Below, in pieces: positions 4,939-20,196 of a stretch of 20,196 nt of DNA (its first letter is position 1; every line of letters starts with the position of its first letter). Source of the DNA: a candidate division WWE3 bacterium CSP1-7 (lineage in GTDB: Bacteria; Patescibacteriota; WWE3; 9FT-COMBO-53-11). Below the pieces are notes generated by a model, which had not been told where the DNA came from, searched no databases, and worked only from the letters and a program-made list of their open reading frames with translations. Made by a program: the position numbers and the translations under genes. The stretch lies in contig LDXK01000007.1 of assembly GCA_001443395.1 (NCBI GenBank), forward strand, positions 1 to 20,196. Reading direction: 5' to 3'.

Positions 4939-5195
4939 TGCCGCTCGATTGGATGCACCTAGAAGGCGAGGAGAAGGCGCAAGCCATCCTCGATGATATT
5001 GAGGGCCTGGAAGACGCCGAGGTTCAGTCACTCCTAGAGGAGTGGCGCGAACTGGAGGGCTCAGACGACTCTAAGTTGTCTGACCTGACGCGCCTTGCCC
5101 TTGATTTTCTTGCACGCAAGAGTGGTGCCCCAACGAGCCGAGAGCGGGCTAGAGCCAGCCTTCAGCGCCGAGGGGTAATAGAATGGCCTCCTTGA
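4938..5195 (+). CDS. Small hypothetical protein (85 aa) between scaffold and capsid genes
   Basis: GTG start overlaps the scaffold stop (TAGTG), fills the gap and overlaps the capsid start. Acidic N-terminal half and basic C-terminal half. Confidence 0.6.
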   Translation: MPLDWMHLEGEEKAQAILDDIEGLEDAEVQSLLEEWRELEGSDDSKLSDLTRLALDFLARKSGAPTSRERARASLQRRGVIEWPP

Positions 5196-6430
5196 TCCAA
5201 ACGGTTTCCTCGACTGCGGTGGGCGGGCAAAACCTTCCCAATTCAGTCAGGACCCAGTACATTGAGAACTACATCGAAGCTGCCGAGATGGCGCGCGTCT
5301 ACGACCAGATTGCTGCGCCCATTGGCAGAGACATGAGCAACCTTGCTCGTGGTTCCTCGGTGCAGGTTAATGCCCTTTCGGACATGCAGCCTGGCACCTC
5401 GGCAATCTCCGAAGTCTCGGACATCGCCATGCAGGCACTCAGGGACGCGACCCTGAGCATCACCCCCACCAGCCGCGGCGAGGGCATTCAGTGCTCCGAG
5501 CTGCTTCTAAACCAGGCATACACCGACTACGGTGCCCAGCGGTTTGGGATCGTCGGCAAGGGGTTGATGGAAAGCCTTGAGGTTCTGGCCCGCGACGCGG
5601 CCACTCAGGGAAGTCTCGTCATCCGCCAGGGCGTTGCTGCCCGAACCTCACTTCTGGCTTCTGCAACGGGCCACCGGGCGACCGACGGCCTGTTCAGTGA
5701 CGCCTCGACGATGCTGGAAACCCTCAAGTGCCCTGGCTTCAAGGGCATGGGCGGGGGTCGGCGCTGGGTTGCGATCATGCACCCGGCCGCCTTCCATGAC
5801 ATCCGCGAGGACGGAAACGTCCAGAACGTCGGCATCTACCAAGACAAGGGGATCATCCTCAATTATGAGTTGGGGAGCATCGGTCCATTCGCTCTCGTGA
5901 GTTCAGCCTGGGCGAAGGTCTTCGGTGGAGCCGGGGCTCCTTTGACTGATCCGGGTTCAGCGGTGTTCTACACCCTGACCTCCTCGGTCAACGCCCTGGA
6001 CAAGACCTTGGTCCTGTCCACGGTAACACACCTGGACACACCCACCAACAAGTGGCTTACCATCGGCACGCGAGAGACGGGCGATACGTCCTACCCGCTG
6101 AACGATCGGGTGCGCTTTGTGTCTCATGCCGCTGGAGTAGTGACGTTTGTTGGCGAGGCCTCCAACGGCGGGTTGCGCTTTGACCATGCCGCGGCCACCT
6201 GGGTCGGGAATGCCTCAGATGTGTTCCCCATCGTCTTCGGTGGACCGATGTCGCTGGCGAAGGTCTACGAGCCTTCGGTTGGCGAGTACGGCACCATCGT
6301 TGGCCCGAAGCGCGACGGCTCACTGGACCAGTGGGTCACACTCGGCTTCAAGTGGTACGGGAACTACGGCCGGATGAGCGAGAGCTGGCTCATGCGGGCC
6401 GAGGTTGCCTCGAGCGCAAGCGTCGCGTAA
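5183..6430 (+). CDS. Major capsid protein (HK97 fold, N4-gp56-like) with probable insertion domain
   Basis: 415 aa after the scaffold. Motifs GSSVQV, AIMHPAAFHDIR, ELGSIGPF and C-terminal DGSLDQWVTLGFKWYGNYGRMSESWLMRAEVA resemble N4-gp56-family capsid proteins. Confidence 0.85.
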   Translation: MASLIQTVSSTAVGGQNLPNSVRTQYIENYIEAAEMARVYDQIAAPIGRDMSNLARGSSVQVNALSDMQPGTSAISEVSDIAMQALRDATLSITPTSRGEGIQCSELLLNQAYTDYGAQRFGIVGKGLMESLEVLARDAATQGSLVIRQGVAARTSLLASATGHRATDGLFSDASTMLETLKCPGFKGMGGGRRWVAIMHPAAFHDIREDGNVQNVGIYQDKGIILNYELGSIGPFALVSSAWAKVFGGAGAPLTDPGSAVFYTLTSSVNALDKTLVLSTVTHLDTPTNKWLTIGTRETGDTSYPLNDRVRFVSHAAGVVTFVGEASNGGLRFDHAAATWVGNASDVFPIVFGGPMSLAKVYEPSVGEYGTIVGPKRDGSLDQWVTLGFKWYGNYGRMSESWLMRAEVASSASVA

Positions 6431-7023: not shown

Positions 7024-8115
7024 ATGCGAGTTTTTGTCGGCGGAGTATCATCGGAATACGCACATGGGGGTTGCGTAGAATCGTTCCTTACCATCAGATT
7101 GAGGCCCGGAGACGAGCGCAAGTACCAGTGGCGCACGCGCGGAGACATTGCCCGTACCGAACTCTGTGACGAGTTTATGCGTCGCAAGGAGTTCGACGCC
7201 TTCTTCCTGGTGGACGTGGACATGCTGTTCGACCACGACATCCTGGAGAGGATGCGGTCACACGACCTAGATATTGTCAGCGGGCACTACTTCCGCAGGC
7301 GCTTCAACCCAATGATTTCGATTGCCGAGGTTGGGGAGTGGCCCTATGAGCCACTGTACGACATCCCCGATGACGGGCTGATTGAGGTCTCGACCAGCGG
7401 TTTCGGCTGTCTGCTTATCAAGAGGAATGTTCTGGAAGCAGTACAGAAGACGATGGATCCCAAGGAGCCAATCCTGGGAATGGGGCCCCTGCCCGAGATG
7501 ACCAATGGTGATCGAGGCCCGTTTGGAGCAGACTTCGTGTTCTCCGCAAGGGCCAGACAGTCGGGTTACAAGCACTGGGTAGACTGCAATCCCGTGGCGG
7601 AGGCCAGGCACGCAGCGACCGTGTTCTTGGATAGGAAACTGTACAAGAAGGTCCGTGGGTGGCAAGTAGAGAAAGCCGCCGACCACTGGAAGAAAATCTG
7701 GCAACTCAATCTGGAGGTTCATGGAATGGACGCAAAGACCGCCGACGCACGAGTGAAGCAACTTCAGCTAATCCGCAAAGGCTTTGCCGATAGCTTGCGG
7801 GATTTTGAGGATCAGGCGGCGAACCTGCGCACCCGCATTTCCATTGTGGATGGGCAGATTGCCGAACGAGAAATTGACATACAGACAGCGCCACCGGAAC
7901 CAAAGACGCTGACGGCAGAAGACTCTCCGAAGCCGCTACTCCTGGGCAAGTTGCCCGTGTTCAACTCAGAGAAAGAGGCGAAAGCCGCTCTGGCAAACAG
8001 GGGCAAGGGACCAGAGGGGGAGAGCGAAGAAGAGGGTCAACGTCTTCGGGAACCGGTAGCCAAGAAACTCGCACAGGATTTCTTGGGGGCGCTAAAAGAT
8101 GGCTCGGCCTCTTGA
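7024..8115 (+). CDS. GT-A fold (GT2-like) glycosyltransferase with fused C-terminal coiled-coil domain
   Basis: RGDIARTELC, FFLVDVDM (DxD), IVSGHY, SGFGCLLIKRNVLE and GADFVFSARARQSGYKHWVD match the phage GT2-like pattern. The last ~130 aa are charged and helical. Confidence 0.85.
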   Translation: MRVFVGGVSSEYAHGGCVESFLTIRLRPGDERKYQWRTRGDIARTELCDEFMRRKEFDAFFLVDVDMLFDHDILERMRSHDLDIVSGHYFRRRFNPMISIAEVGEWPYEPLYDIPDDGLIEVSTSGFGCLLIKRNVLEAVQKTMDPKEPILGMGPLPEMTNGDRGPFGADFVFSARARQSGYKHWVDCNPVAEARHAATVFLDRKLYKKVRGWQVEKAADHWKKIWQLNLEVHGMDAKTADARVKQLQLIRKGFADSLRDFEDQAANLRTRISIVDGQIAEREIDIQTAPPEPKTLTAEDSPKPLLLGKLPVFNSEKEAKAALANRGKGPEGESEEEGQRLREPVAKKLAQDFLGALKDGSAS

Positions 8116-8662
8116 GGTTATCAGGCATTGTTGCCTGGCAGGGACGAACCTTGAGCGCGCCGACCTGAGGTACATGGACCTCAGGGGAGTGAACTTTACC
8201 AATTCAAACCTGCGTGGGGCAGACCTGTCCCACGCCGACTGTCGGGGAGCGATCTTCGTGAAGGCGGACCTCTCGCGGGCGTGCCTCTACAACACGAACT
8301 GCGAGGATGCAGACTTCAGCAACGCCGACCTCACTATGTCCTACTTGCGGGCCACTAATTTCAACCACGCCACGATGTGGTGGGCATCCCTAAGAAGGGT
8401 GACGGCCAAGAGCGCCTTCTTCCTTGGGGCAGACATGACCGGCGTAGACATGGCTTACGGGTTCTTTCTGGGATCTAGGTTTGGGCCTCCTCTTTGCAAG
8501 GCCGACCAGATGCGGAATGTTGATAAGGCGGTCTTTCACTGGTACTGGGATCCACAGGGGGGCATCCCGTCCTACGATCCCAAAGAGGGATACGTTGATC
8601 TCTGGCACAGCGTCCTAGGGGGCATCTCTCTCCAAGAGAATGCATCTACGAGGCCCAAATGA
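8099..8662 (+). CDS. Pentapeptide repeat protein 1
   Basis: Tandem A(D/N)Lxx repeats (TNLER ADLRY MDLRG VNFTN SNLRG ADLSH ...) and a Trp-rich C-terminal extension. Confidence 0.9.
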   Translation: MARPLEVIRHCCLAGTNLERADLRYMDLRGVNFTNSNLRGADLSHADCRGAIFVKADLSRACLYNTNCEDADFSNADLTMSYLRATNFNHATMWWASLRRVTAKSAFFLGADMTGVDMAYGFFLGSRFGPPLCKADQMRNVDKAVFHWYWDPQGGIPSYDPKEGYVDLWHSVLGGISLQENASTRPK

Positions 8663-9096
8663 GACACCGCGCCTTTGAGTTACGATTGCAGGAACTGGAA
8701 ATGCAGCTGGAGTTCCTGGTCAAACAGGTCAATGAGGCAAGAGCCTCCGGGGCGGAGAAGACCGTCATTGCCGAGCTGATGCTGAAGTACACCGATGTCG
8801 AGGCTCGGATGGACGAGATACATCTGTGGGAAAAGGCGGAGGAAGAGAACCCGCGGTATGGAACCCAGGTCAGGGTCAACGGGATGTGGCGCCCGAAGTT
8901 GCCGGAGTTTGGATCTCTGGAGAAAGCCCTAGAAGCCATGAACTCCCCAACCGGGGGAGGACACTCGGCGGCGGCCGTGAAAGCGGCAAGAGAGTTTCGG
9001 TCCAGCGAGGACGCCAGGGAAACCGTCAGGTCCTTAGACGGTAGAAGCCCGCTCGTTCCCGAGGAAGAACGGAAGCCGTTCAACACGACGCTATGA
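8659..9096 (+). CDS. Hypothetical coiled-coil protein, apparent paralog of the glycosyltransferase C-terminal domain
   Basis: ATGA overlaps at both ends, heptad-like N-terminus, and KLPxFxS motif shared with 7726-8115. Confidence 0.7.
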   Translation: MRHRAFELRLQELEMQLEFLVKQVNEARASGAEKTVIAELMLKYTDVEARMDEIHLWEKAEEENPRYGTQVRVNGMWRPKLPEFGSLEKALEAMNSPTGGGHSAAAVKAAREFRSSEDARETVRSLDGRSPLVPEEERKPFNTTL

Positions 9097-9713
9097 CCAG
9101 TGTGGATAAGCGCCTGGAGTTGGCCTACAAGAGTTCCCTCGTCGGGGCGAACCTGGAGAGAGCCGATTTGCGTGGGTTAGATTTGCGAGGCATCAATCTG
9201 ACCAGCGCCAACCTCCGAGGGGCCGATTTGTCGCAGGCGAACTTGTCGCAGGCGACACTGATTAGGACAGATTTGTCCAGGGCCAACATCCAACGGGCGA
9301 ACTTCACCGACGCCGACATGACGGGCTGCGACCTTACGGGCTGTTACGGCAGAGGGGCGAAGTTCTACAGGACCAAATTGTGCCTGGCCTATCTGAGATA
9401 CGCCCAGTTCAAGAACGCATTCTTCATCGAGTGCGACATGACTGGGGCGGATCTGCTGAATAGCCTCTTCCTGGGAGCGAAGTTTGATGGCTCCAACACA
9501 GAGGGCGTGAAGAATGCCGACAGGGCCATCTTCCTGTGGTGGTGGTCGCCGTTGAAGACGGGGAAGATCAGCTACGATCCGCTGCCGGGATGGATACAAC
9601 TGGACGAGAGCGTTACTGGAGTCGAGAGCGTTCGAGAGAACGCCGCCCGAGAGCGTGTTGAAGACTCCGTACAGAAGGCGTGGGAGGTTATGGACGATGC
9701 CTCGAAAGCGTAA
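9093..9713 (+). CDS. Pentapeptide repeat protein 2 (paralog of 8099-8662)
   Basis: ANLER ADLRG LDLRG INLTS ANLRG ADLSQ ANLSQ repeats and the same C-terminal motif (FxWxWxP...SYDP..G...SV.G...ENA). Confidence 0.9.
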   Translation: MTSVDKRLELAYKSSLVGANLERADLRGLDLRGINLTSANLRGADLSQANLSQATLIRTDLSRANIQRANFTDADMTGCDLTGCYGRGAKFYRTKLCLAYLRYAQFKNAFFIECDMTGADLLNSLFLGAKFDGSNTEGVKNADRAIFLWWWSPLKTGKISYDPLPGWIQLDESVTGVESVRENAARERVEDSVQKAWEVMDDASKA

Positions 9714-10026
9714 GGATCAGCCCGTTCCGTTGGAAGAACTGCGGTTCTCGGGGGATGCCAACCTCATCCTTGCCAGGCTCAAGGCAGAGTTGGCCGAGAG
9801 GGATAGGTATATCAACGTCCTGGAGAACGAGAACCTGGGCCTGGAGAAGTGTGCCAACAGGGTTTGGACTGCCCTGGAGGAGGCGGAGGCAATGGCAAAC
9901 CGCTTCCCGCAGTTTGTTCAGGATGCCCTGAATGACCCGAAAAAGCACGCCTCCAGACTGGCCGAGGCGGCTCGCTACGGCAGGATCTTCCGGGAAGCCA
10001 AGGACGACTTCCAGAGACTCAGATGA
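9697..10026 (+). CDS. Hypothetical coiled-coil protein (109 aa)
   Basis: Start at ATG 9697 (MPRKRK) with GGGAGG upstream, ATGA overlap with the neuA-like gene, and heptad-like LKAELAERDRYINVLENENLGLEK. Confidence 0.65.
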   Translation: MPRKRKDQPVPLEELRFSGDANLILARLKAELAERDRYINVLENENLGLEKCANRVWTALEEAEAMANRFPQFVQDALNDPKKHASRLAEAARYGRIFREAKDDFQRLR

Positions 10027-10736
10027 ACCGCCAGCAGAGGGTCCTCGGGGTCACGGCCGCCAGGGGAGGAAGCAAGGGCGTTCCCCGGAAGAATATCCGC
10101 CAGATCAATGGCATTCCCCTGATTGCCTACACCATCCGAGAAGCCAAGAAGAGCCATCTCATCAGTAGATACATTGTGTCTACAGATGATGACGAGATAG
10201 CTGAGGTTTCCCGCCACTACGGGGCCGGGGTTCTGATGCGGCCGTCGGAACTGGCCGAAGACCATACCCCAATGATTGCCGTGATGCAGCACGCCCTGAA
10301 GCGGTGCGAGGAGGAAGAGGGGGAGTGGTATGACATCGTGGCCGACCTAAGATGCACCAATCCTCTCAAGACGGCCTATGACATCGACGGGGCAATAGAG
10401 AAACTGATCCACACTGGGGCAGACGGGGTTATCGGGGTGACAAAGCTGGACGATCACCACCCGGCACGGATCAAGCGGGTCTTCGAGGATAGATTGATTG
10501 ACTTTGCCTGGCCCGAGCCGCCGGCGGGATTGCGACAGGAACTCAAACCAGATGCCTTCATCCGCAACGGCAGCTTGTATGTGGTGCTCAGGGATGCACT
10601 TCTAGACGGCATTCTTCTTCAGGGTAGCGATAATCTTAGGCCTTGGTACATGCCGCTGGAGAAGAGCGTGAACATCGACTCCGAGTTGGATTTTGTTCTG
10701 GTGGAGGCGCTCCTTGGACGCAACCGCAAGATTTGA
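10023..10736 (+). CDS. neuA: Acylneuraminate cytidylyltransferase (CMP-nonulosonate synthetase family)
   Basis: ARGGSKGVPRKNI, PLIAYTI, IVSTDDDEIA, RPSELAED, NGSLY and SVNIDSELDF motifs of CTP_transf_3 enzymes. Confidence 0.92.
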   Translation: MNRQQRVLGVTAARGGSKGVPRKNIRQINGIPLIAYTIREAKKSHLISRYIVSTDDDEIAEVSRHYGAGVLMRPSELAEDHTPMIAVMQHALKRCEEEEGEWYDIVADLRCTNPLKTAYDIDGAIEKLIHTGADGVIGVTKLDDHHPARIKRVFEDRLIDFAWPEPPAGLRQELKPDAFIRNGSLYVVLRDALLDGILLQGSDNLRPWYMPLEKSVNIDSELDFVLVEALLGRNRKI

Positions 10737-11433
10737 AGTCGGGGGTAAGGAGTTCAACTTTACGGCCCCCACGCCCCTCCAGTTCAGGACACTGCACAAG
10801 ATAGTGGATGCCTACTATTCAACCGATTATGTCAGGCAGCGTCTAGGAAACATTCGGCATATCGTTGATGTGGGCGCCTGCATAGGAACAATGTCTCTTG
10901 TTTACGAGGCTATATGGCCAGGGGTGGAAATACTTGCCATAGAACCACACCCAGACAACTTCAGGTATCTCGTGGAGAACTGTAGGGCGTTCAAGAACAT
11001 TCACCCCGTGAACATTGCCGTCAGCGACAAAGAGGAGAGAATACGCCTCGCCTTCCCAACCCCGGAACAGCGGCCGGACATAAAACGCCTTTATCTATTC
11101 GCCAACGTAGGAATGGTTTCTCGCTACGGACTCTCAGACGCATTTGTGGCGGAGGTGGACGCCGTACCGCTAGACAGTATTGTTGGATGGAATGTAGATT
11201 TCCTGAAAGTCGACGTAGAGGGGTCAGAAATGCAGGTCTTGCGCGGGGCCGAAGGGGTGCTCTCTGGAAATCCCCTCGTGACGGTGGAGTTGCGCCCCGA
11301 CAATCTGGCCATGGCGGGCCTGACCTGCGAAGACGTTGACGAACATCTACAGGGCATGGGATATGAGGCGGTGGCAAAGTTTATGGGAGACCCGTTGTAT
11401 CAACGCCGGAACTGGCGGCCATGGTTTTCATAG
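10714..11433 (+). CDS. FkbM-family SAM-dependent methyltransferase
   Basis: IVDVGACIG, AIEPHPDNF, AVSD, LDSI and DFLKVDVEGSEMQVLRGA. Probable TTG start at 10714 with GGAGG at 10703-10707. Confidence 0.88.
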   Translation: MDATARFEVGGKEFNFTAPTPLQFRTLHKIVDAYYSTDYVRQRLGNIRHIVDVGACIGTMSLVYEAIWPGVEILAIEPHPDNFRYLVENCRAFKNIHPVNIAVSDKEERIRLAFPTPEQRPDIKRLYLFANVGMVSRYGLSDAFVAEVDAVPLDSIVGWNVDFLKVDVEGSEMQVLRGAEGVLSGNPLVTVELRPDNLAMAGLTCEDVDEHLQGMGYEAVAKFMGDPLYQRRNWRPWFS

Positions 11434-12083
11434 CCGAACTCGGCAGTATGCATAAAGGCATTGAGGCGCTGGCCTATGAGATGGTGCGCAGGGCAAAGAT
11501 GTCTGGCGCAGATGCCGTGAAGTTCCAGTTCGGCTGGGGTCCCGATGCGGGGGACGCCCGCAGGTGGGCCGAGGCGAACGCCAAACTGATACGTGGCTGG
11601 TGTGACTACTTTGACATCCAGTTCGGGGCGTCGGTGTTCTCCTGGGGCGGGTTGGCCACGGCGGAATCTTGCGGCGTAGACTACCTGAAGATGGCGCATC
11701 CGGAGACATTTGCCAGGAATGCGCCTTTTGAGAACTACGAGAAGATATTGCATCTGTGTCTGCAAAGCGGCAAGCCGCTGTACGTTTCCGGGAGCAGTGC
11801 CCCTGGGGCGGTCTCTCTTTATTGTGTTCCGAAGTATCCCGTTTACCAGGAGGAACTACAACTGCCGATGCGCTTCTCTAGCCTGTGGTGGGGCGGCTAC
11901 TCATCGCACACTCATGGAATTGAGGATGCGCTGGTGGCCATTGGCAGGGGAGCGACGGTTATCGAGAAGCACGTAACCCTGGACAAGACCGAGGAGAGCA
12001 TCAAAGACAACCAGTTCGCGCTCTCATTTGAGGAGTTTGCCGAGATGGTCCATATCGGAAGGGCTATGTCGAGGCTGACATAA
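11421..12083 (+). CDS. neuB: NeuB/SpsE-family nonulosonic acid synthase, short form lacking the C-terminal antifreeze-like (SAF) domain
   Basis: FIAELGSMHKG, GADAVKFQ, YCVPKYP, GYSSHTHG, GATVIEKHVTLDK and DNQFAL motifs; only 220 aa. Confidence 0.85.
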   Translation: MVFIAELGSMHKGIEALAYEMVRRAKMSGADAVKFQFGWGPDAGDARRWAEANAKLIRGWCDYFDIQFGASVFSWGGLATAESCGVDYLKMAHPETFARNAPFENYEKILHLCLQSGKPLYVSGSSAPGAVSLYCVPKYPVYQEELQLPMRFSSLWWGGYSSHTHGIEDALVAIGRGATVIEKHVTLDKTEESIKDNQFALSFEEFAEMVHIGRAMSRLT

Positions 12084-13012
12084 TGTTGGCACACTGGAGC
12101 GCCCCCTACAGACCTCACTGGAAGATGTGGTCCTGGCCGTGCGAGACCTCGTTCTGGGAGGTCTATGAGGCGAAAGACCTGGAGGGGCTGCCGCCGATTG
12201 GCATTCTCTACGCCAACCCGAATGCGCACTACGTCCTGGACATGGCCGCCCTGGAGATGCTGCCCGACCTCAAGATGGTTGTGACGCCGTCTACGGGGAA
12301 CACGCACATTGATATGCTGGCCCTTAGGGAGGCCGGCGTTGAACTGCGGTCTCTGCTGGATGACCGTCCCGCCCTGGAGGAAATCAGGGCCAGTTCGGAG
12401 TTCACGTTCCTTCTCATTATGAATGCCCTGCGACGGCTGGATAAGATGCTGTTATCGGGGGAGTGGAAGCGGGACGAGGAAAGCCTGCGGGGGCACGAGC
12501 TATACGAGGCGATGATCGGGCTGGTGGGTCATGGGAGGATCGGCAAGAACGTCGAGAGATGGTGCCGAGAGTTCGGGGCGGGGGTGTACTGGTACGATCC
12601 CTACGACGACGCCAGGGATAACATCTACCAGTGCAGCATACCGTGGCAGTTCTCAAACTGTCATGTTGTGGTTCTGTGCTGTTCCCTGACGGCCGAGACA
12701 AGGGGCTCGATTACGGGCCAGATGGTCTACCGAATGCGGCCGAATGCGACCCTCATCAATACGGCTCGGGGCGAGCTTCTAGCAGACGATGTTTGCGACG
12801 CCCTCAGGAAGCGCCAGGATGTGACGGCCTGGTTTGACGTACTGCCGGGAGAGGCAAGCGGTGGACCGGAGCAGGCTTACCTGGAACTGCCAAATGTCCA
12901 CGTGACCCCGCACATTGCGGGTACGACATTCGAGAGCCAGGAGAAGGCGGCTAGAATTGCAATGCAATTGGCGGGGAGGTGGCTGAGTGCCTACAGCAAA
13001 AGTCCAGCCTAA
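12083..13012 (+). CDS. D-isomer-specific 2-hydroxyacid dehydrogenase (phosphoglycerate dehydrogenase-like)
   Basis: STGNTHID, Rossmann motif IGLVGHGRIG, YDPY, LINTARG, FDVLPGE and VTPHIAG (catalytic Arg/Glu/His pattern). TAATG overlap with the neuB-like gene. Confidence 0.9.
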   Translation: MLAHWSAPYRPHWKMWSWPCETSFWEVYEAKDLEGLPPIGILYANPNAHYVLDMAALEMLPDLKMVVTPSTGNTHIDMLALREAGVELRSLLDDRPALEEIRASSEFTFLLIMNALRRLDKMLLSGEWKRDEESLRGHELYEAMIGLVGHGRIGKNVERWCREFGAGVYWYDPYDDARDNIYQCSIPWQFSNCHVVVLCCSLTAETRGSITGQMVYRMRPNATLINTARGELLADDVCDALRKRQDVTAWFDVLPGEASGGPEQAYLELPNVHVTPHIAGTTFESQEKAARIAMQLAGRWLSAYSKSPA

Positions 13013-17794: not shown

Positions 17795-18515
17795 CTCTGA
17801 ACTCCAGGATTTGACCGCAGATACCGCACCGGCATCCGGCGATGTTGTCTACGTCGTTGTTGACCCGGCCGGCACACCTCTGGCCCGGAAGATGACGGTC
17901 GACAATCTACTGAAGGCTATCAACATCCTGTCGGCGGATACGACACCAGGTACGGCCGACCTTGTGGTGACGATTGATGACCCGTCCGGAACTCCGGTAG
18001 CCAAGAAAGCCACCATCGCCAACCTGATGAAGGCGTGGTTCCTGGACTCGGAGGGGAACCCGGCAGACGTCGTAACCCTGACAGCGGCTGATGGAACAAG
18101 CATCTATGCGGCACGCAGGGACCACGTTCATGCGGCAGCATTGATCCGCCATGTTTGCATCGAGGTTGTGGACAAGGACACTGCATTGACCACAGGGGAT
18201 GGCAAGAAGGCATTCCATATTCCGCCTGACATAACGGGCTACAACCTAGTCTATGTCCATATGTTTTGTCTGACGGCCAGCAGCAATGGCATTCCCACTA
18301 TTCAGGTGCGAAACCAGACAGACACCCAAGACATGCTGAGCACGAAGTTGACCATCGACCAGGGCGAGACGGACTCGAAGGATGCTACTGCGGCCGCCGT
18401 CATTGACACCACAAAGGACGACGTGGTGACGAATGACATCATCGCCCTGGACTGCGATGTGGCGGGTACGGGCACAAAGGGCCTGTATGTAACGCTGGGG
18501 TTCCAGAAGCCATGA
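17787..18515 (+). CDS. Tail fibre-like protein with two 39-aa repeats
   Basis: LTADTAPASGDVVYVVVDPAGTPLARKMTVDNLLKA and LSADTTPGTADLVVTIDDPSGTPVAKKATIANLMKA, then ARRDHVH (fibre HxH motif) and a C-terminal beta domain ending GTKGLYVTL. Confidence 0.7.
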   Translation: MADSELQDLTADTAPASGDVVYVVVDPAGTPLARKMTVDNLLKAINILSADTTPGTADLVVTIDDPSGTPVAKKATIANLMKAWFLDSEGNPADVVTLTAADGTSIYAARRDHVHAAALIRHVCIEVVDKDTALTTGDGKKAFHIPPDITGYNLVYVHMFCLTASSNGIPTIQVRNQTDTQDMLSTKLTIDQGETDSKDATAAAVIDTTKDDVVTNDIIALDCDVAGTGTKGLYVTLGFQKP

Positions 18516-19306
18516 CCTACGCAACCGGTGGTACGATTAGTGAAGTCGGGGGGAAACGCATCCACACTTTCAATACCGACGACAACTTCGTTGTCAGCGT
18601 TGCCGGTGATGTCGAGGTTCTCGTCGTTGCTGGCGGTGGTGGCGGCGGAGTGGGCTATGGAGGCGGTGGAGGCGGTGGCGGTATCCAGTACAATGCGGCT
18701 TTTGCGGTAACGGTTCAATCCTATGCTGTCGTCAGAGGCAACGGAGGGGCGGAGGGTGGAAATCCGGGCGGAACAGGGAACAATTCCACCTTCTCCACCA
18801 TAACCGCGAACGGGGGCGGTGGTGGCGGCGGTCCTGATTTAAATGGCGTAAATGGAGGATGCGGGGGCGGAGGCGGCGGTTCGGGCGCATCCTCAAAAAC
18901 TGGGGGCACGGGGAATCAGGGCTACAATGGCGGCAATAACCAGCCGCAGGGAGGGGTCGGCCCCGCGGGCGGCGGTGGGGGTGGCGGATCGGTAGGGCAG
19001 AATGCGGCAGTGAACAATGCGGGGAATGGCGGATCAGGTGCGTCATATAGTATCTCTGGAAGTGCGGTTGCCTACGCGGGCGGCGGTGGAGGGGGAATCA
19101 TTGGACAAACTGCCGGCACCGCGACGGATGGCGGAGGAGCAGGGAGCAATTCGACCACCGGGGCGGCGGGAACTGCTAACAGGGGCGGTGGCGGTGGCGG
19201 CGGCGGTGGCGGTACCGCCAGCGGTGGGGCAGGCGGAAGTGGTGTTGTGATTATCAGCTACATACCAACCGCTGCTGCCGGTCAATCCATCATGTGGTGG
19301 TTCTGA
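18512..19306 (+). CDS. Glycine-rich fibre tip/adhesin-like protein
   Basis: HTF...VEVLVVAGGGGGG...GGAGGSGVVIISY architecture typical of phage glycine-rich domain proteins. Confidence 0.8.
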   Translation: MTYATGGTISEVGGKRIHTFNTDDNFVVSVAGDVEVLVVAGGGGGGVGYGGGGGGGGIQYNAAFAVTVQSYAVVRGNGGAEGGNPGGTGNNSTFSTITANGGGGGGGPDLNGVNGGCGGGGGGSGASSKTGGTGNQGYNGGNNQPQGGVGPAGGGGGGGSVGQNAAVNNAGNGGSGASYSISGSAVAYAGGGGGGIIGQTAGTATDGGGAGSNSTTGAAGTANRGGGGGGGGGGTASGGAGGSGVVIISYIPTAAAGQSIMWWF

Positions 19307-19644
19307 TGCCCACCAACGGTTCCCGCGTCACCCAGAAGCAGCTATTCGAAACCGTCATGGAACTCGACGGTAAGCTATCATCCAAGATGGACAACATCCT
19401 GGCGCAGGTGACCTCGAACAGGGTAGCCAATGCGGGGGAATACGCCTGTCTCCAGGAGGGTCTCAATAGCCTCAAGACACGCCTGGAGGGAAAGGGGGGC
19501 CTGATTGACCGGATAGACAGAATCGACGGGAAGGGGGGACGCCTGACAGTCCTTGAGCACAGTGATAGGAAGGTTGGCTTCTGGGCCAGCCTCATTGGGG
19601 TCGTTTCGGCTGCCATAGCCGGAATACTTGCAAGTCGGAATTGA
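19306..19644 (+). CDS. Coiled-coil protein with C-terminal transmembrane helix (holin/XhlA-like)
   Basis: TGATG-coupled ATG, heptad-like region, and hydrophobic C-terminus VGFWASLIGVVSAAIAGILA. Confidence 0.55.
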   Translation: MPTNGSRVTQKQLFETVMELDGKLSSKMDNILAQVTSNRVANAGEYACLQEGLNSLKTRLEGKGGLIDRIDRIDGKGGRLTVLEHSDRKVGFWASLIGVVSAAIAGILASRN

Positions 19645-19656
19645 ACGTGCTATAAT
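19628..19656 (+). promoter_or_regulatory. Near-consensus sigma70 promoter with extended -10
   Basis: TTGCAA (19628-19633), 17-nt spacer, TGcTATAAT (-10 at 19651-19656). Confidence 0.8.
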
Positions 19657-19664
19657 CTCTCCAC

Positions 19665-19836
19665 GGGCCGGGCCTGGAGGGCCAGGAGAACGTAGGTTGC
19701 TGCAAGCCGCCAACGGTGCCCATCACCGGCGGCCCAAAACTTCGCCCGACTGCTCCACTGGGCAACCAGAGCGGTGATGTCGTGCGGCGAGATGCTAAGC
19801 ATCCCGCAATGCAGATGAGCTGGAGCCCCGGCCCCA
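19665..19836 (+). ncRNA. Candidate ~170-nt structured RNA of unrecognised family
   Basis: Starts 9 nt after the -10 box. Closing stem GGGCCGGG/CCCGGCCC, four internal hairpins including one with a GCAA tetraloop, and no convincing ORF. Confidence 0.55.
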
Positions 19837-19857
19837 TTCACAATCTCGGCACTGGAG

Positions 19858-19931
19858 GTTTACAATCAGACGCAGCTGAAGTTTACAATCAGCCAGGCTT
19901 GTAATCGTCGATACAATGTATACACATTGTA
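19858..19931. repeat. Operator-like direct and inverted repeats with a TACAA core
   Basis: GTTTACAATCAG at 19858-19869 and 19881-19892, inverted TTGTAA at 19899-19904, and palindrome TACAATGT-ATAC-ACATTGTA at 19912-19931. Confidence 0.65.
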
Positions 19932-19967
19932 GTCATCCGCATAAGAAAGGCAGTCAAAGGAGATAAC

Positions 19968-20153
19968 ATGAAGAAGTTCTACGCCAGCAAGAGCTTTTGG
20001 TTCTTCGTTCTCTCGATCGTTGTGGCCGTGGCTGGCCTGTTCGGCTTTGCTGATTTCCAGCCATCGGCAGACCAGGCGACGATCATCGCCCTGGTTGTGT
20101 CAGTTGGGGGCCTGATCCTACGGTTCCTGTCCAGCAAGGGCATTGAGCTCTGA
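19968..20153 (+). CDS. Small two-TM holin-like protein (61 aa)
   Basis: Strong SD AAAGGAG. N-terminal KKFYASKSFW, two hydrophobic helices and an LRFLSSK tail, typical of small phage holin-like proteins. Confidence 0.7.
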   Translation: MKKFYASKSFWFFVLSIVVAVAGLFGFADFQPSADQATIIALVVSVGGLILRFLSSKGIEL

Positions 20154-20163
20154 TAGTTCGTGT

Positions 20164-20196
20164 CATGTAACTACCCGTTCAATAGGTAGTTACATG
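20164..20196 (+). terminator. Perfect 12-bp inverted repeat after the holin-like gene (possible terminator)
   Basis: CATGTAACTACC-9 nt-GGTAGTTACATG. It runs to the window edge, so any U-tract cannot be seen. Confidence 0.5.

What the first reader, a model, noticed from the sequence alone, without database searches (positions are those of the whole stretch)
19665..19836. Promoter-linked ~170-nt multibranched RNA candidate between two holin-like genes
Seen: right after a near-consensus promoter are a closing stem 19665-19672/19827-19834, hairpin CCTGG/CCAGG (19673-19686) and inner stem CTGCA/TGCAG (19700-19704/19810-19814). The inner stem encloses three hairpins: 19706-19733, 19750-19774 (GCAA tetraloop) and 19783-19808. 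Competing long-range pairings exist: CATCACCG/CGGTGATG (19721-19728/19772-19779) and GCTCCA/TGGAGC (19752-19757/19821-19826). I do not recognise tRNA, tmRNA, SRP, RNase P or common riboswitch signatures. Inference: a possibly undescribed phage ncRNA, or a switchable leader controlling the downstream holin-like gene.
Basis: partly seen in the sequence, partly recalled or inferred. Interest (0 to 1): 0.75.

Follow-up and report, generated by a model that had tools for sequence, protein, structure and literature searches.

The report
Uncatalogued structured RNA shared by phages
A roughly 170-base stretch behind a strong promoter in this phage contig is a conserved, folded RNA gene of a family found in no RNA catalogue, shared almost unchanged by otherwise unrelated groundwater and soil phages, and its job is still unknown.

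Summary
The element is real. Window 19665-19834 (+) follows an extended -10 promoter (19628-19656). It has no Rfam 15 match and no tRNA or tmRNA call. Pattern scans found it in 3 viral contigs and 17 metagenome stretches, giving 9 distinct variants.

Similarity starts and stops exactly at the terminal helix. One carrier phage (G062) shares only 2 and 1 weak protein matches (about 30% identity) with the other two. Its RNA is still 78% identical overall, and the 5' two-thirds average 89% across variants.

Support for the fold:
- 97.6% of cells pair.
- Pairs changed on both sides occur in P2, P4 and P6.
- P6 is replaced by four different hairpins.
- One-sided changes give G:U on the + strand.

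An in-frame stop and a frameshift rule out coding.

Best reading (about 0.5): a self-contained RNA gene made as a discrete RNA and acting in trans. Rivals: cis leader of the downstream unit (0.25), DNA-level site (0.1). No expression data exist. All variants come from similar habitats.

The parts
19628..19656 (+). Extended -10 promoter: TTGCAA, 17-base spacer, TG-c-TATAAT. The predicted start lies 1-3 bases before the terminal helix.
   Evidence: 10 of 12 matches, TG present. TGnTA(T/G)AAT motifs lie 8-63 bases upstream of 7 of 10 copies in five different upstream sequences. The motif is rare: 2 sites in the 34-kb record G061 and 4 in G063.
19665..19834 (+). The RNA element, 170 nt. P1 terminal helix: 19665-19672 with 19827-19834.
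   Evidence: Homology to L003 and the other variants begins and ends at these bases. Covariance model R1 scores 174.8 bits here. P1 pairs in 100% of cells with two G:U variants.
19673..19686 (+). P2 hairpin CCUGG-AGGG-CCAGG.
   Evidence: Pair 12:19 is A:U in 7 variants and G:C in 2. The loop GGG is invariant and complementary to the invariant CCC of the P4 loop.
19687..19701 (+). Conserved junction AGAACGUAGGUUGCU, possibly a weak P3 hairpin. GGUUGC (19695-19700) is complementary to GCAACC (19762-19767).
   Evidence: RNAalifold pairs 23-27 with 32-37. Variation is only A:U to G:U in 3 variants. The GGUUGC/GCAACC match is read directly from invariant columns of A3, so covariation cannot test it.
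19706..19733 (+). P4 two-part hairpin GCCGCC-AAC-GGUG-CCCAU-CACC-GGCGGC.
   Evidence: Pair 45:67 is G:C in 6 variants and A:U in 3. Pair 51:64 is G:C in 8 and G:U in 1. Pair 47:65 is C:G in 6 and G.A in 3.
19746..19775 (+). P5. The family consensus is CCGACU/AGUCGG closing an internal loop GCUCCA and the hairpin CUGG-GCAA-CCAG (19758-19769). In the window's variant the outer pairing is shifted to CGAC 19747-19750 with GUCG 19779-19782.
   Evidence: An invariant block, CCCGACUGCUCC + one variable base + CUGGGCAACCAGAG, read from alignment A3. P5a pairs in 8 of 9 variants; the window is the exception. The shifted pairing is in the minimum-free-energy fold.
19779..19816 (+). P6, a long variable hairpin: GUC/GAU, UGCG/UGCA, GCG/CGC, GAUGC-UAA-GCAUC.
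   Evidence: Folded alone, this region forms a long hairpin in all 9 variants, in four different sequence versions. Its base pair is G:C in L028 and A:U in L004c2. The next helix is UGC/GCA but CGC/GCG in L003. Mean identity here is 55.9%, against 88.8% in columns 1-113.
19822..19826 (+). GGAGC, directly abutting the P1 3' strand. Candidate long-range partner of GCUCC (19752-19756).
   Evidence: Pairs in 9 of 9 variants, with one U:A to U:G change in L027. The columns are otherwise invariant, so the pairing is unproven.
19837..19866 (+). Second promoter-like site TTCACA-18-TACAAT, starting 3 bases after P1.
   Evidence: 10 of 12 matches. Conserved in 5 of 5 'type A' downstream sequences.
19837..19931 (+). 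AT-richer spacer. It holds TTCACAATC (19837), TTTACAATCAG twice (19859-19869 and 19882-19892, 23 bases apart) and the inverted repeat TACAATGT-ATAC-ACATTGTA (19912-19931), which contains TGTATACA (19917-19924).
   Evidence: TGTATACA occurs once in each of the three phage records, 48-85 bases downstream of the element each time.
19968..20153 (+). Downstream 61-aa protein with two hydrophobic stretches ('holin-like').
   Evidence: PHROG holin family phrog_34682 at E = 0.0094 only. No Pfam match.
19294..19644 (+). Upstream 116-aa protein with a hydrophobic C-terminal stretch. The promoter's -35 hexamer lies in its last codons.
   Evidence: No Pfam or PHROG match. The nearest Atlas clusters are viral hypothetical proteins.

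Best explanation
Window 19665-19834 (+) is a gene for a structured RNA of about 170 nt. It belongs to a small family that no RNA catalogue holds.

It is transcribed rightward from the extended -10 promoter at 19628-19656. It folds into an 8-bp terminal helix (P1) that closes a multi-helix junction:
- P2, a hairpin.
- A conserved junction, possibly a weak P3.
- P4, a two-part hairpin.
- P5, with an invariant internal loop and a GCAA tetraloop.
- P6, a long hairpin that is free to vary.

Invariant complementary segments may add tertiary or alternative pairings: GCUCC/GGAGC next to P1, GGUUGC/GCAACC, and loop GGG with loop CCC.

I read it as a self-contained RNA module, an 'RNA moron' with its own promoter. 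Phages exchange it as a unit bounded by P1. It is released or ends at the P1 boundaries. The 5' leaders of 8-63 nt would then have to be removed, as RNase P removes the leader of the phage P1 c4 RNA. The mature RNA would act in trans as a stable RNA that binds a factor common to these phages' hosts, as a decoy or as the RNA part of a complex.

Shown: conservation, sharp ends, a fold supported by compensatory and wobble changes, the strand, promoter linkage, no coding potential, one locus per phage record (two tandem copies in G063), no Rfam match.

Inferred only: that a discrete RNA is made, how its ends form, that it acts in trans, and what it binds.
For: 1. Family and sharp ends.
- An exact 28-mer and three other patterns find 3 IMG/VR contigs. 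One pattern finds 17 metagenome stretches. Together they give 9 distinct variants.
- Against L003, BLAST aligns only 19665-19771 and 19818-19838 of the 2.2 kb compared. The alignment shows that identity starts at GGGCC and stops at CCCC.

2. Carried by unrelated phages.
- G062 shares 2 weak protein matches with G061 and 1 with G063, at 30-33% identity.
- The RNA's 5' 113 columns average 88.8% identity across variants.

3. Fold.
- 97.6% of 459 cells pair, against 30-49% when the partners are slid.
- None of 500 shuffles reaches the covariation score.
- Double changes occur at pairs 12:19, 45:67 and 127:146.
- P6 forms a hairpin in four sequence versions, with further double changes at its base (G:C to A:U) and in its next helix (U:A to C:G).

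4. Strand.
- One-sided changes in P1-P5 and the candidate pseudoknot give G:U in 7 cells, against 1 A.C cell.
- The folding z-score is more negative on the + strand in 8 of 9 variants.
- The reverse strand scores 12.7 bits against 174.8.

5. Promoter. TGnTA(T/G)AAT lies upstream of 7 of 10 copies, in five different upstream sequences, 8-63 bases from P1.

6. A module of its own.
- Two unrelated downstream sequence types both begin right after P1.
- The same P6 version (GCGAG/CUCGC) occurs with both types.
- A second promoter-like site directly follows P1 in 5 of 5 type A loci.
- G063 carries two intact tandem copies.
- Rearrangement junctions fall at the P1 5' end: the L028 deletion relative to L031, and the L004 duplication.

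7. Not coding. The frame MPITGGPK... meets an in-frame TAA in three variants. The other open frame, LLQAANG..., is stopped in L035 and frameshifted in L026.

8. Not catalogued. No Rfam hit in the window, in 119 kb of related loci, or at E up to 10 on three element regions. ARAGORN finds nothing.
Against: - No transcript evidence exists. No RNA run holds the stretch, so the promoter, the RNA ends and the RNA's stability are all predictions.
- No intrinsic terminator follows P1 in the window (0 terminator-like sites in 19000-20196). The bases after P1 are only moderately U-rich in some variants.
- Three of 10 copies lack a recognisable promoter (L003, L028, L004 copy 2).
- The element always points the same way as the next gene and lies 116-142 bases before its start in 8 of 8 contexts. 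That also fits a leader.
- Diversity is shallow. There are 9 variants. Most helix columns never vary: 35 of 51 pairs. All holders are soil, sediment or groundwater metagenomes of 2014-2016, possibly one campaign, so the covariation statistics are weak.
- The single-sequence folding z-scores are modest, from -0.2 to -2.8.
- No partner protein or target was identified. Action in trans is argued only from modularity.
Confidence: 0.5

Rival explanations
1. A cis-acting leader. The element would be the promoter-proximal part of the mRNA for the next gene or operon. It would control that unit by modifying RNA polymerase (processive antitermination, as in HK022 put), by attenuation as in the lambda PR'-6S-tR' leader, or by pairing with the ribosome-binding region of the first gene.
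For: - Same orientation as the next gene, and 116-142 bases upstream of its start, in 8 of 8 contexts.
- A promoter lies upstream in 7 of 10 copies.
- In G062 the element heads 65-aa protein, terS, terL, portal, Mu F-like protein and capsid. From recall, this resembles the lambda late-operon layout.
- In type B loci a terminator-like hairpin with a U tract lies about 80 bases after the element.
- The invariant block GACUGCUCCACU has a 7-base Watson-Crick complement in the downstream untranslated region in three unrelated contexts. The chance is 0.03-0.05 per context. The complement lies just 5' of the ribosome-binding site in type A and B. Three further variants keep the pairing through G:U.
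Against: - Homology between loci with unrelated downstream sequence ends exactly at P1, and no expression platform is shared.
- P6 versions and 3' tails recombine freely with both downstream types.
- Type A loci have a promoter-like site right after P1 (5 of 5), and the scan finds no terminator-like site before the gene in the window.
- The type B 'terminator' also reads as a promoter, TTGACT-18-TATAGT.
- Duplex energies of the block with the untranslated regions are no better than shuffles in type A (z about +0.3; 58-63% of shuffles are as good, 82% for L035).
- The first downstream genes are unrelated to each other (61, 90, 65 and 254 aa).
- Tandem copies serve no purpose in a leader.
Confidence: 0.25
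2. A DNA-level site. The conserved stretch, together with the repeats and palindrome next to it, would act as DNA. It could be a replication origin primed by the promoter's transcript (ColE1 RNA II-like), a recombination or packaging site, or a small mobile DNA element with defined ends.
For: - One locus per phage record.
- It always lies beside a TGTATACA palindrome that is unique in each record, and beside repeats TT(T/C)ACAATC spaced 22-23 bases apart.
- The GC-rich element (67%) is followed by a 42% GC stretch.
- Several rearrangement junctions coincide with the element's 5' end.
- The element's depth in assemblies exceeds that of its flanks, and contigs break there.
Against: - Wobble changes are strand-specific (G:U on +, which would read A.C on -). 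Double-stranded DNA sites do not select for this.
- The promoters are consistently oriented.
- There are no terminal inverted repeats with target duplications, no transposase, no integrase and no replication initiator next to it.
- Cumulative GC skew follows gene orientation and marks nothing here.
- In the 34-kb record G061 the element lies about 25 kb from terL, so it is not a cos or pac site there.
- The downstream repeats differ between type A and type B.
Confidence: 0.1
3. A conserved but functionless stretch. It would be a hitch-hiking recombination 'linker' between phage modules whose hairpins are incidental.
For: - Single-sequence z-scores are modest.
- 35 of 51 modelled pairs never vary, so they say nothing about structure.
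- The variants may come from one habitat and campaign.
Against: - Nearly 89% identity over 113 columns, between phages with about 30% protein identity, needs either selection or very recent transfer.
- The changes that do occur preserve pairing: double changes in 3 pairs of the model, 2 more in P6, and four alternative P6 hairpins.
- A promoter is retained in five different upstream sequences.
Confidence: 0.05
4. A small protein-coding gene. Either the open frame GTG 19716-19904, or the frame LLQAANG... that starts at TTG 19697 behind an AGGAG, would be translated.
For: - Both frames are open in the window.
- AGGAG lies 8 bases before the TTG.
- The first 19 codons of MPITGGPK... are similar in three variants.
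Against: - There is an in-frame TAA in the L027, L028 and L031 variants.
- L026 has a 1-base insertion.
- L035 has a TAG at codon 14 of the other frame.
- Substitutions track stems, not codons.
- No PHROG match for the three frames tested.
Confidence: 0.02

Closest known systems
Phage P1/P7 c4 antisense RNA and P4 CI RNA (leader-encoded phage RNAs cut out of a longer transcript)
   Same: - An RNA gene placed between a promoter and the genes that follow, in the same orientation.
- A terminal 5'/3' helix with dispensable leaders of variable length, which implies processing. RNase P cleavage of the c4 precursor is cited in PMC4919922 (passage and reference 206 read).
- Spread among different phages. 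This point is from recall.
   Different: - c4 and CI are about 70-80 nt (recalled). This RNA is about 170 nt with five or six helices.
- The Rfam scans returned no family at all, C4 included.
- Complementarity to downstream targets is only 7 bases and not better than chance by energy.
- No 3' CCA-like tail.
Lambda PR' leader ('6S' late transcript, tR') and HK022 put RNAs (promoter-proximal RNAs that govern read-through).
   Same: - Strong promoter followed at once by an untranslated RNA of 70-190 nt.
- In G062 the element stands before a small membrane protein, terS, terL and the head genes.
   Different: - The scan finds no terminator-like site in 19000-20196, which covers the end of the element.
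- No Q-like gene was recognised.
- In the window the element lies at the end of the structural genes, not at their start.
- The put RNAs are two simple stem-loops.
- The element is exchanged without its downstream sequence.
phi29 packaging RNA (pRNA, Rfam RF00044). Properties recalled.
   Same: - Similar size (174 nt).
- A 5'/3' terminal helix closing a multi-helix domain.
- Own strong promoter.
- Two hairpin loops with complementary bases (here GGG and CCC) that could pair within or between molecules.
   Different: - No Rfam match.
- The carrier phages have terS and terL terminases and a standard portal. They lack the phi29-type packaging ATPase system.
- The loop bases are invariant, so the contact is untested.
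Orphan structured RNAs of phages and prophages (GOLLD, ROOL and similar)
   Same: Complex, conserved folds of unknown function, carried by phages and found by comparative analysis of metagenomes. Known to me from the search listing and abstract of 10.1101/2024.12.08.627333 and from recall.
   Different: - Those RNAs are about 600-800 nt (recalled) and are in Rfam.
- This one is 170 nt and shows no similarity to them.
- It is so far seen only in a narrow set of soil, sediment and groundwater phage contigs.

Membership tests
Any Rfam 15 family (4227 models) | Score at or above the family's gathering threshold | tested here: not met
   0 hits in the window and 0 in 119,035 bases of 16 related loci. 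At E up to 10 the only hits were noise at E of 2 or more: sR35, ZNFX1-AS1_2, PyrR, SpR20.
tRNA / tmRNA | Cloverleaf, or tRNA-like domain with a tag reading frame, as detected by ARAGORN | tested here: not met
   0 genes in the window.
P1 c4 / P4 CI type leader-encoded antisense RNA | Loops complementary to target sites near the ribosome-binding site of the downstream gene | tested here: inconclusive
   7-base complements of the invariant block occur in three unrelated downstream regions. Duplex energies are no better than shuffles in type A.
P1 c4 / P4 CI type leader-encoded antisense RNA | Excision from the precursor by RNase P | not testable with these tools
   The only signs are the variable 5' leaders (8-63 nt) and the sharp P1 boundary.
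Processive antitermination RNA (HK022 put-like) or lambda PR' leader | Terminators downstream that must be read through, or a terminator ending the leader | tested here: not met
   No terminator-like site in window 19000-20196. One ambiguous site in type B that also reads as a promoter. In the G062 segment L046, which holds the operon downstream of the element, 4 terminator-like sites against 10.4 expected.
Riboswitch | Aptamer coupled to a conserved expression platform, upstream of functionally related genes | tested here: not met
   Two unrelated downstream sequences start right after P1. The first genes are unrelated: 61, 90, 65 and 254 aa. Ligand binding cannot be tested here.
phi29-type pRNA | Carried by a phi29-like phage with its own packaging ATPase and no terS/terL pair; match to RF00044 | tested here: not met
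   terS-like and terL domains are present. No Rfam match.
Retron msr-msd or other reverse-transcriptase-linked RNA | Adjacent reverse transcriptase gene | tested here: not met
   No reverse-transcriptase domain among 22 window proteins, 17 neighbour proteins and 62 further proteins of G061-G063.
MITE or IS-derived element | Many copies, terminal inverted repeats with target-site duplications, a related transposase | tested here: not met
   One locus per phage record (two tandem copies in G063), no other copy in the 572-kb host bin, and 0 of 150 related genomes. No transposase found.
Protein-coding small ORF | Reading frame kept open across homologues | tested here: not met
   In-frame TAA in three variants, TAG in L035, frameshift in L026.

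The most novel reading that the evidence does not exclude
The element may be a new class of functional RNA that defines its own ends. It could be a self-cleaving ribozyme, or a tRNA-minihelix-like substrate in which P1 stacks on the GCUCC/GGAGC helix. It would travel between unrelated phages as a unit and act on a conserved host machine, for example as a decoy against a host defence or as a hijacker of transcription or translation. Its invariant complementary segments would let it switch between two folds.
Probability: 0.15. Interest if true: 0.85.

Novelty: new variant of a known kind. Interest (0 to 1): 0.6.

Why it matters
- Structured RNAs with five or six helices and long invariant junctions are usually ribozymes, riboswitches or parts of RNA-protein machines. 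Very few are known from phages.
- This one is kept nearly unchanged in phages that share almost no proteins, so it probably contacts something they all depend on.
- The window lies in a genome bin of only 572 kb. If the phages infect that kind of small-genome bacterium (unverified), this would be a rare handle on how such phages manipulate poorly known hosts.
- The RNA is short enough for direct biochemistry: probing, cleavage assays and structure determination.
- If it is only a leader or a recombination linker, the finding is of modest interest.

Tried and rejected
- Expression data: no RNA holder is listed for the stretch. Laying 4 DNA runs gave contigs only. They showed co-occurring variants and higher depth over the element, but nothing on transcripts.
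- Wider homologue search: four further patterns in viral contigs returned the same 3 contigs.
- A gapped pattern in genome contigs gave 6 loci. At E up to 1, model R1 gave no match in four of them and only weak partial matches of 10.7-13.8 bits in L011 and L012, so I treat them as chance.
- Protein-guided searches with the 254-aa and 183-aa neighbours gave one distant phage locus without the element (best R1 score 5.9 bits) and the two known contigs.
- Phage GenBank records: no blastn match for 19300-20196.
- Host origin: no second copy in the host bin, none in 60 relatives by DNA or in 150 by the model. Only chance short matches to other host contigs.
- Antisense-target idea: whole-length duplex folding was meaningless. 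The restricted test was not significant. No complement of 9 or more bases to the invariant block lies elsewhere in the window or in G061-G063, apart from the opposite strand of the element itself and one 9-base match in G061.
- Replication-origin idea: GC skew was uninformative.
- HDV-like or hatchet-like topology: I considered these by eye and rejected them, because the partner of the 5' strand lies at the far 3' end and P4 covaries as a hairpin. This is inference, not a tool test.
- K-turn and tRNA-like readings of parts of the fold were considered and not supported by the order of the bases.
- Literature: one full-text search listed nothing that describes this RNA. A sequence cannot be searched there, so this does not show that it is unpublished.
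Full report
**What the window is**

The window is the whole 20,196-base contig C7 of a 572-kb, 7-contig genome bin that is 80% complete. Its GC content is 58%, against 52.5-55.3% for the other contigs.

Its genes are phage-like:
- a major head protein (phrog_1357, 5183-6430);
- a 1389-aa protein of no known family;
- a glycine-rich protein (PF21722, phrog_2295, 18512-19306);
- a sugar-modification cassette.

All large ORFs lie on the + strand. The link between this phage contig and the bin's organism is unverified.

**Checking the observation**

- The promoter TTGCAA-17-TGcTATAAT (19628-19656) scores 10 of 12 with a TG extension.
- The 172-nt stretch folds to -78.3 kcal/mol, z = -1.78, and 8 of 200 shuffles fold as well.
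- The reverse strand gives z = -0.99.

On its own this is borderline. Rfam 15 gives no hit at gathering thresholds and only noise at E up to 10. ARAGORN finds nothing.

**Relatives**

- An exact 28-mer scan of viral contigs found two records.
- L002 is a 97%-identical relative of the whole region.
- L003 matches only 19665-19771 and 19818-19838 of the 2.2 kb compared.
- The alignment shows identity switching on at GGGCC and off after CCCC, with unrelated flanks.
- A second pattern added a third record with two tandem copies.
- One metagenome scan gave 17 stretches.
- After removing duplicates there are 9 distinct variants of 164-173 nt, aligned as A3.
- Three more viral patterns and one genome-collection pattern added nothing real.
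- A covariance model (R1) finds one locus per phage record, with two tandem copies in G063. It finds none elsewhere in the host bin and none in 150 related genomes.

The holders listed are soil, sediment and groundwater metagenomes of 2014-2016 from 17 studies. These may be one campaign.

**The carrier phages are not close kin**

- G062 shares only 2 weak protein matches with G061 and 1 with G063, at 30-33% identity.
- G061 and G063 are related to each other.
- The element's first 113 alignment columns average 88.8% identity (minimum 82.1%).
- The P6 region averages 55.9%.
- In assemblies of single samples, several variants co-occur. Depth over the element exceeds that of its flanks, and contigs break there.

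So the element is exchanged or conserved as a unit.

**Structure**

RNAalifold keeps P1, P2, a weak P3, P4, P5 and the core of P6. I counted my own model, which adds the GCUCC/GGAGC pairing and the loop GGG/CCC pairing.
- 97.6% of 459 cells pair, against 30-49% for slid partners.
- 3 pairs have changes on both sides (12:19, 45:67, 127:146).
- None of 500 shuffles reaches the covariation score.
- However, 35 of 51 pairs never vary.

Folded alone, the P6 region is a long hairpin in all 9 variants and in four sequence versions. Its base pair is G:C in L028 and A:U in L004c2. Its second helix is UGC/GCA but CGC/GCG in L003.

Points that do not hold:
It competes with P6.
- The pairing CATCACCG/CGGTGATG is private to the window's variant.
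- In the window, the P5 closing pairing is shifted relative to the other 8 variants.

Three pairs of invariant complementary segments remain untestable by covariation: GCUCC/GGAGC, GGUUGC/GCAACC and GGG/CCC.

**Strand and coding**

- One-sided changes in well-aligned helices give G:U in 7 cells, against 1 A.C cell.
- z-scores are more negative on the + strand in 8 of 9 variants.
- R1 scores the reverse strand at 12.7 bits against 174.8.
- Both open frames through the element are broken in some variants: TAA in three, TAG in L035, a 1-base insertion in L026. Substitutions follow stems, not codons.

**Context**

Upstream, a TGnTA(T/G)AAT motif lies 8-63 bases before P1 in 7 of 10 copies, within five different upstream sequences.
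- Five copies carry an extra conserved leader hairpin.
- L028 has lost the promoter and leader through a deletion ending at P1.
- L003 and the second tandem copy have no recognisable promoter.

Downstream there are two unrelated sequence types.
- Type A includes the window. It has TTCACA-18-TACAAT directly after P1, TT(T/C)ACAATC repeats 22-23 bases apart, a palindrome containing TGTATACA, and a conserved ribosome-binding region. A 61-aa or a 90-aa membrane protein follows.
- Type B has TTTGTAAGCTAATTGACC, then TTGTATACAA, then a hairpin that reads both as a terminator and as a promoter. A 254-aa protein follows. In G062 the genes that follow are instead a 65-aa membrane protein, terS, terL, portal, a Mu F-like protein and capsid.

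TGTATACA occurs once per phage record, always 48-85 bases after the element. The same P6 version occurs with both downstream types.

No reverse transcriptase, integrase, transposase or recognisable RNA-binding protein lies nearby. The neighbours are viral hypothetical proteins.

**Interpretation**

The element is a real, conserved, structured RNA on the + strand. I put my confidence in that at about 0.8.

Several features point to a self-contained RNA gene whose product is defined by P1:
- the sharp ends;
- free recombination with two unrelated downstream modules;
- a promoter-like site right after P1 in type A;
- the tandem copies;
- the dispensable leaders.

It is probably trimmed from its leader, and it probably acts in trans on something common to the hosts of these phages. 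Every step after 'it is transcribed and folds' is inference.

The main rival is a cis-acting leader.
- For it: the constant orientation, the 116-142-base spacing to the next start codon, and the G062 layout.
- For it, weakly: a recurrent 7-base complement of the invariant block GACUGCUCCACU near the downstream ribosome-binding sites.
- Against that last point: the energies are no better than shuffles in type A.

A DNA-level role (origin, recombination site) would explain the unique palindrome, the repeats and the junctions at P1. It would not explain the strand-specific wobble pattern. GC skew gives no support.

**Comparison with known RNAs**

The nearest analogues in logic are the leader-encoded, RNase P-processed phage RNAs c4 and CI. 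RNase P processing of c4 is cited in PMC4919922 (passage read). The other analogues are the lambda PR' leader and the HK022 put RNAs, and phi29 pRNA; their properties are recalled, not read. The element meets none of the tested defining features of these families (see the membership table). It is best called a new RNA family of unknown function.

**Limits**

- There are no expression data.
- Only 9 variants are known, from similar habitats.
- MAFFT misaligns P6, so the P6 covariation rests on per-sequence folds.
- E-values from R1 are rough.
- The literature check was one full-text search that cannot query sequence.

Noticed in passing
window 10023-13012: The phage carries a sugar-activation and synthesis cassette: cytidylyltransferase (PF02348), FkbM methyltransferase (PF05050), a NeuB-family domain (PF03102) and a 2-hydroxyacid dehydrogenase (PF02826). 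MptE-like and methyltransferase genes occur in the related records. This suggests that the phage makes a nonulosonic-acid-type sugar, perhaps to decorate its virion or the host surface.
   Followed up: partly
window 8099-8662 and 9093-9713: Two pentapeptide-repeat proteins (PF00805, E = 5.6e-38 and 3.4e-36) sit among the structural genes.
   Followed up: no
L004 2937-3341 (minus strand) = G063 18550-18954: Two intact tandem copies of the RNA have different P6 hairpins. They are separated by 13 bases plus a 54-base diverged fragment of the 5' end of the downstream 90-aa gene. The duplication junction falls at the 5' end of P1.
   Followed up: partly
L025 about 2065-2109; also L026, L027, L031, L035 upstream of the element: A conserved extra leader hairpin, GGCUCUGAGACACGGA(G/A)AUCCGUGGGGUAGGAGCC, lies between the promoter and P1 in five copies. 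It occurs with both downstream types. It is absent from the window.
   Followed up: no
window 19837-19931: Repeats TTCACAATC and TTTACAATCAG (twice), spaced 22-23 bases apart, lie beside an inverted repeat containing TGTATACA. That octamer is unique in each phage record and always lies just downstream of the RNA. The region looks like an operator or iteron array for an unidentified DNA-binding protein.
   Followed up: partly
window 20163-20196 (runs to the contig end); L045 1062-1097: A 14-bp perfect inverted repeat, GTCATGTAACTACC...GGTAGTTACATGAC, lies right after the 61-aa gene and has no U tract. The contig ends inside it.
   Followed up: no
G063: L050 5213-5782, L047 2239-2844 and 3478-4137: Free-standing homing-endonuclease-type genes (GIY-YIG with NUMOD3; T5orf172/MUG113; HNH_3 with a sigma-70 region 4-like helix-turn-helix) occur in a related phage. 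They fit the heavy mosaicism of this phage group.
   Followed up: no
whole contig C7 versus C1-C6 of G000: The phage contig has 58% GC, against 52.5-55.3% for the other contigs of the 572-kb bin. No sequence link to them was found, so assigning it to this host rests on binning alone.
   Followed up: partly
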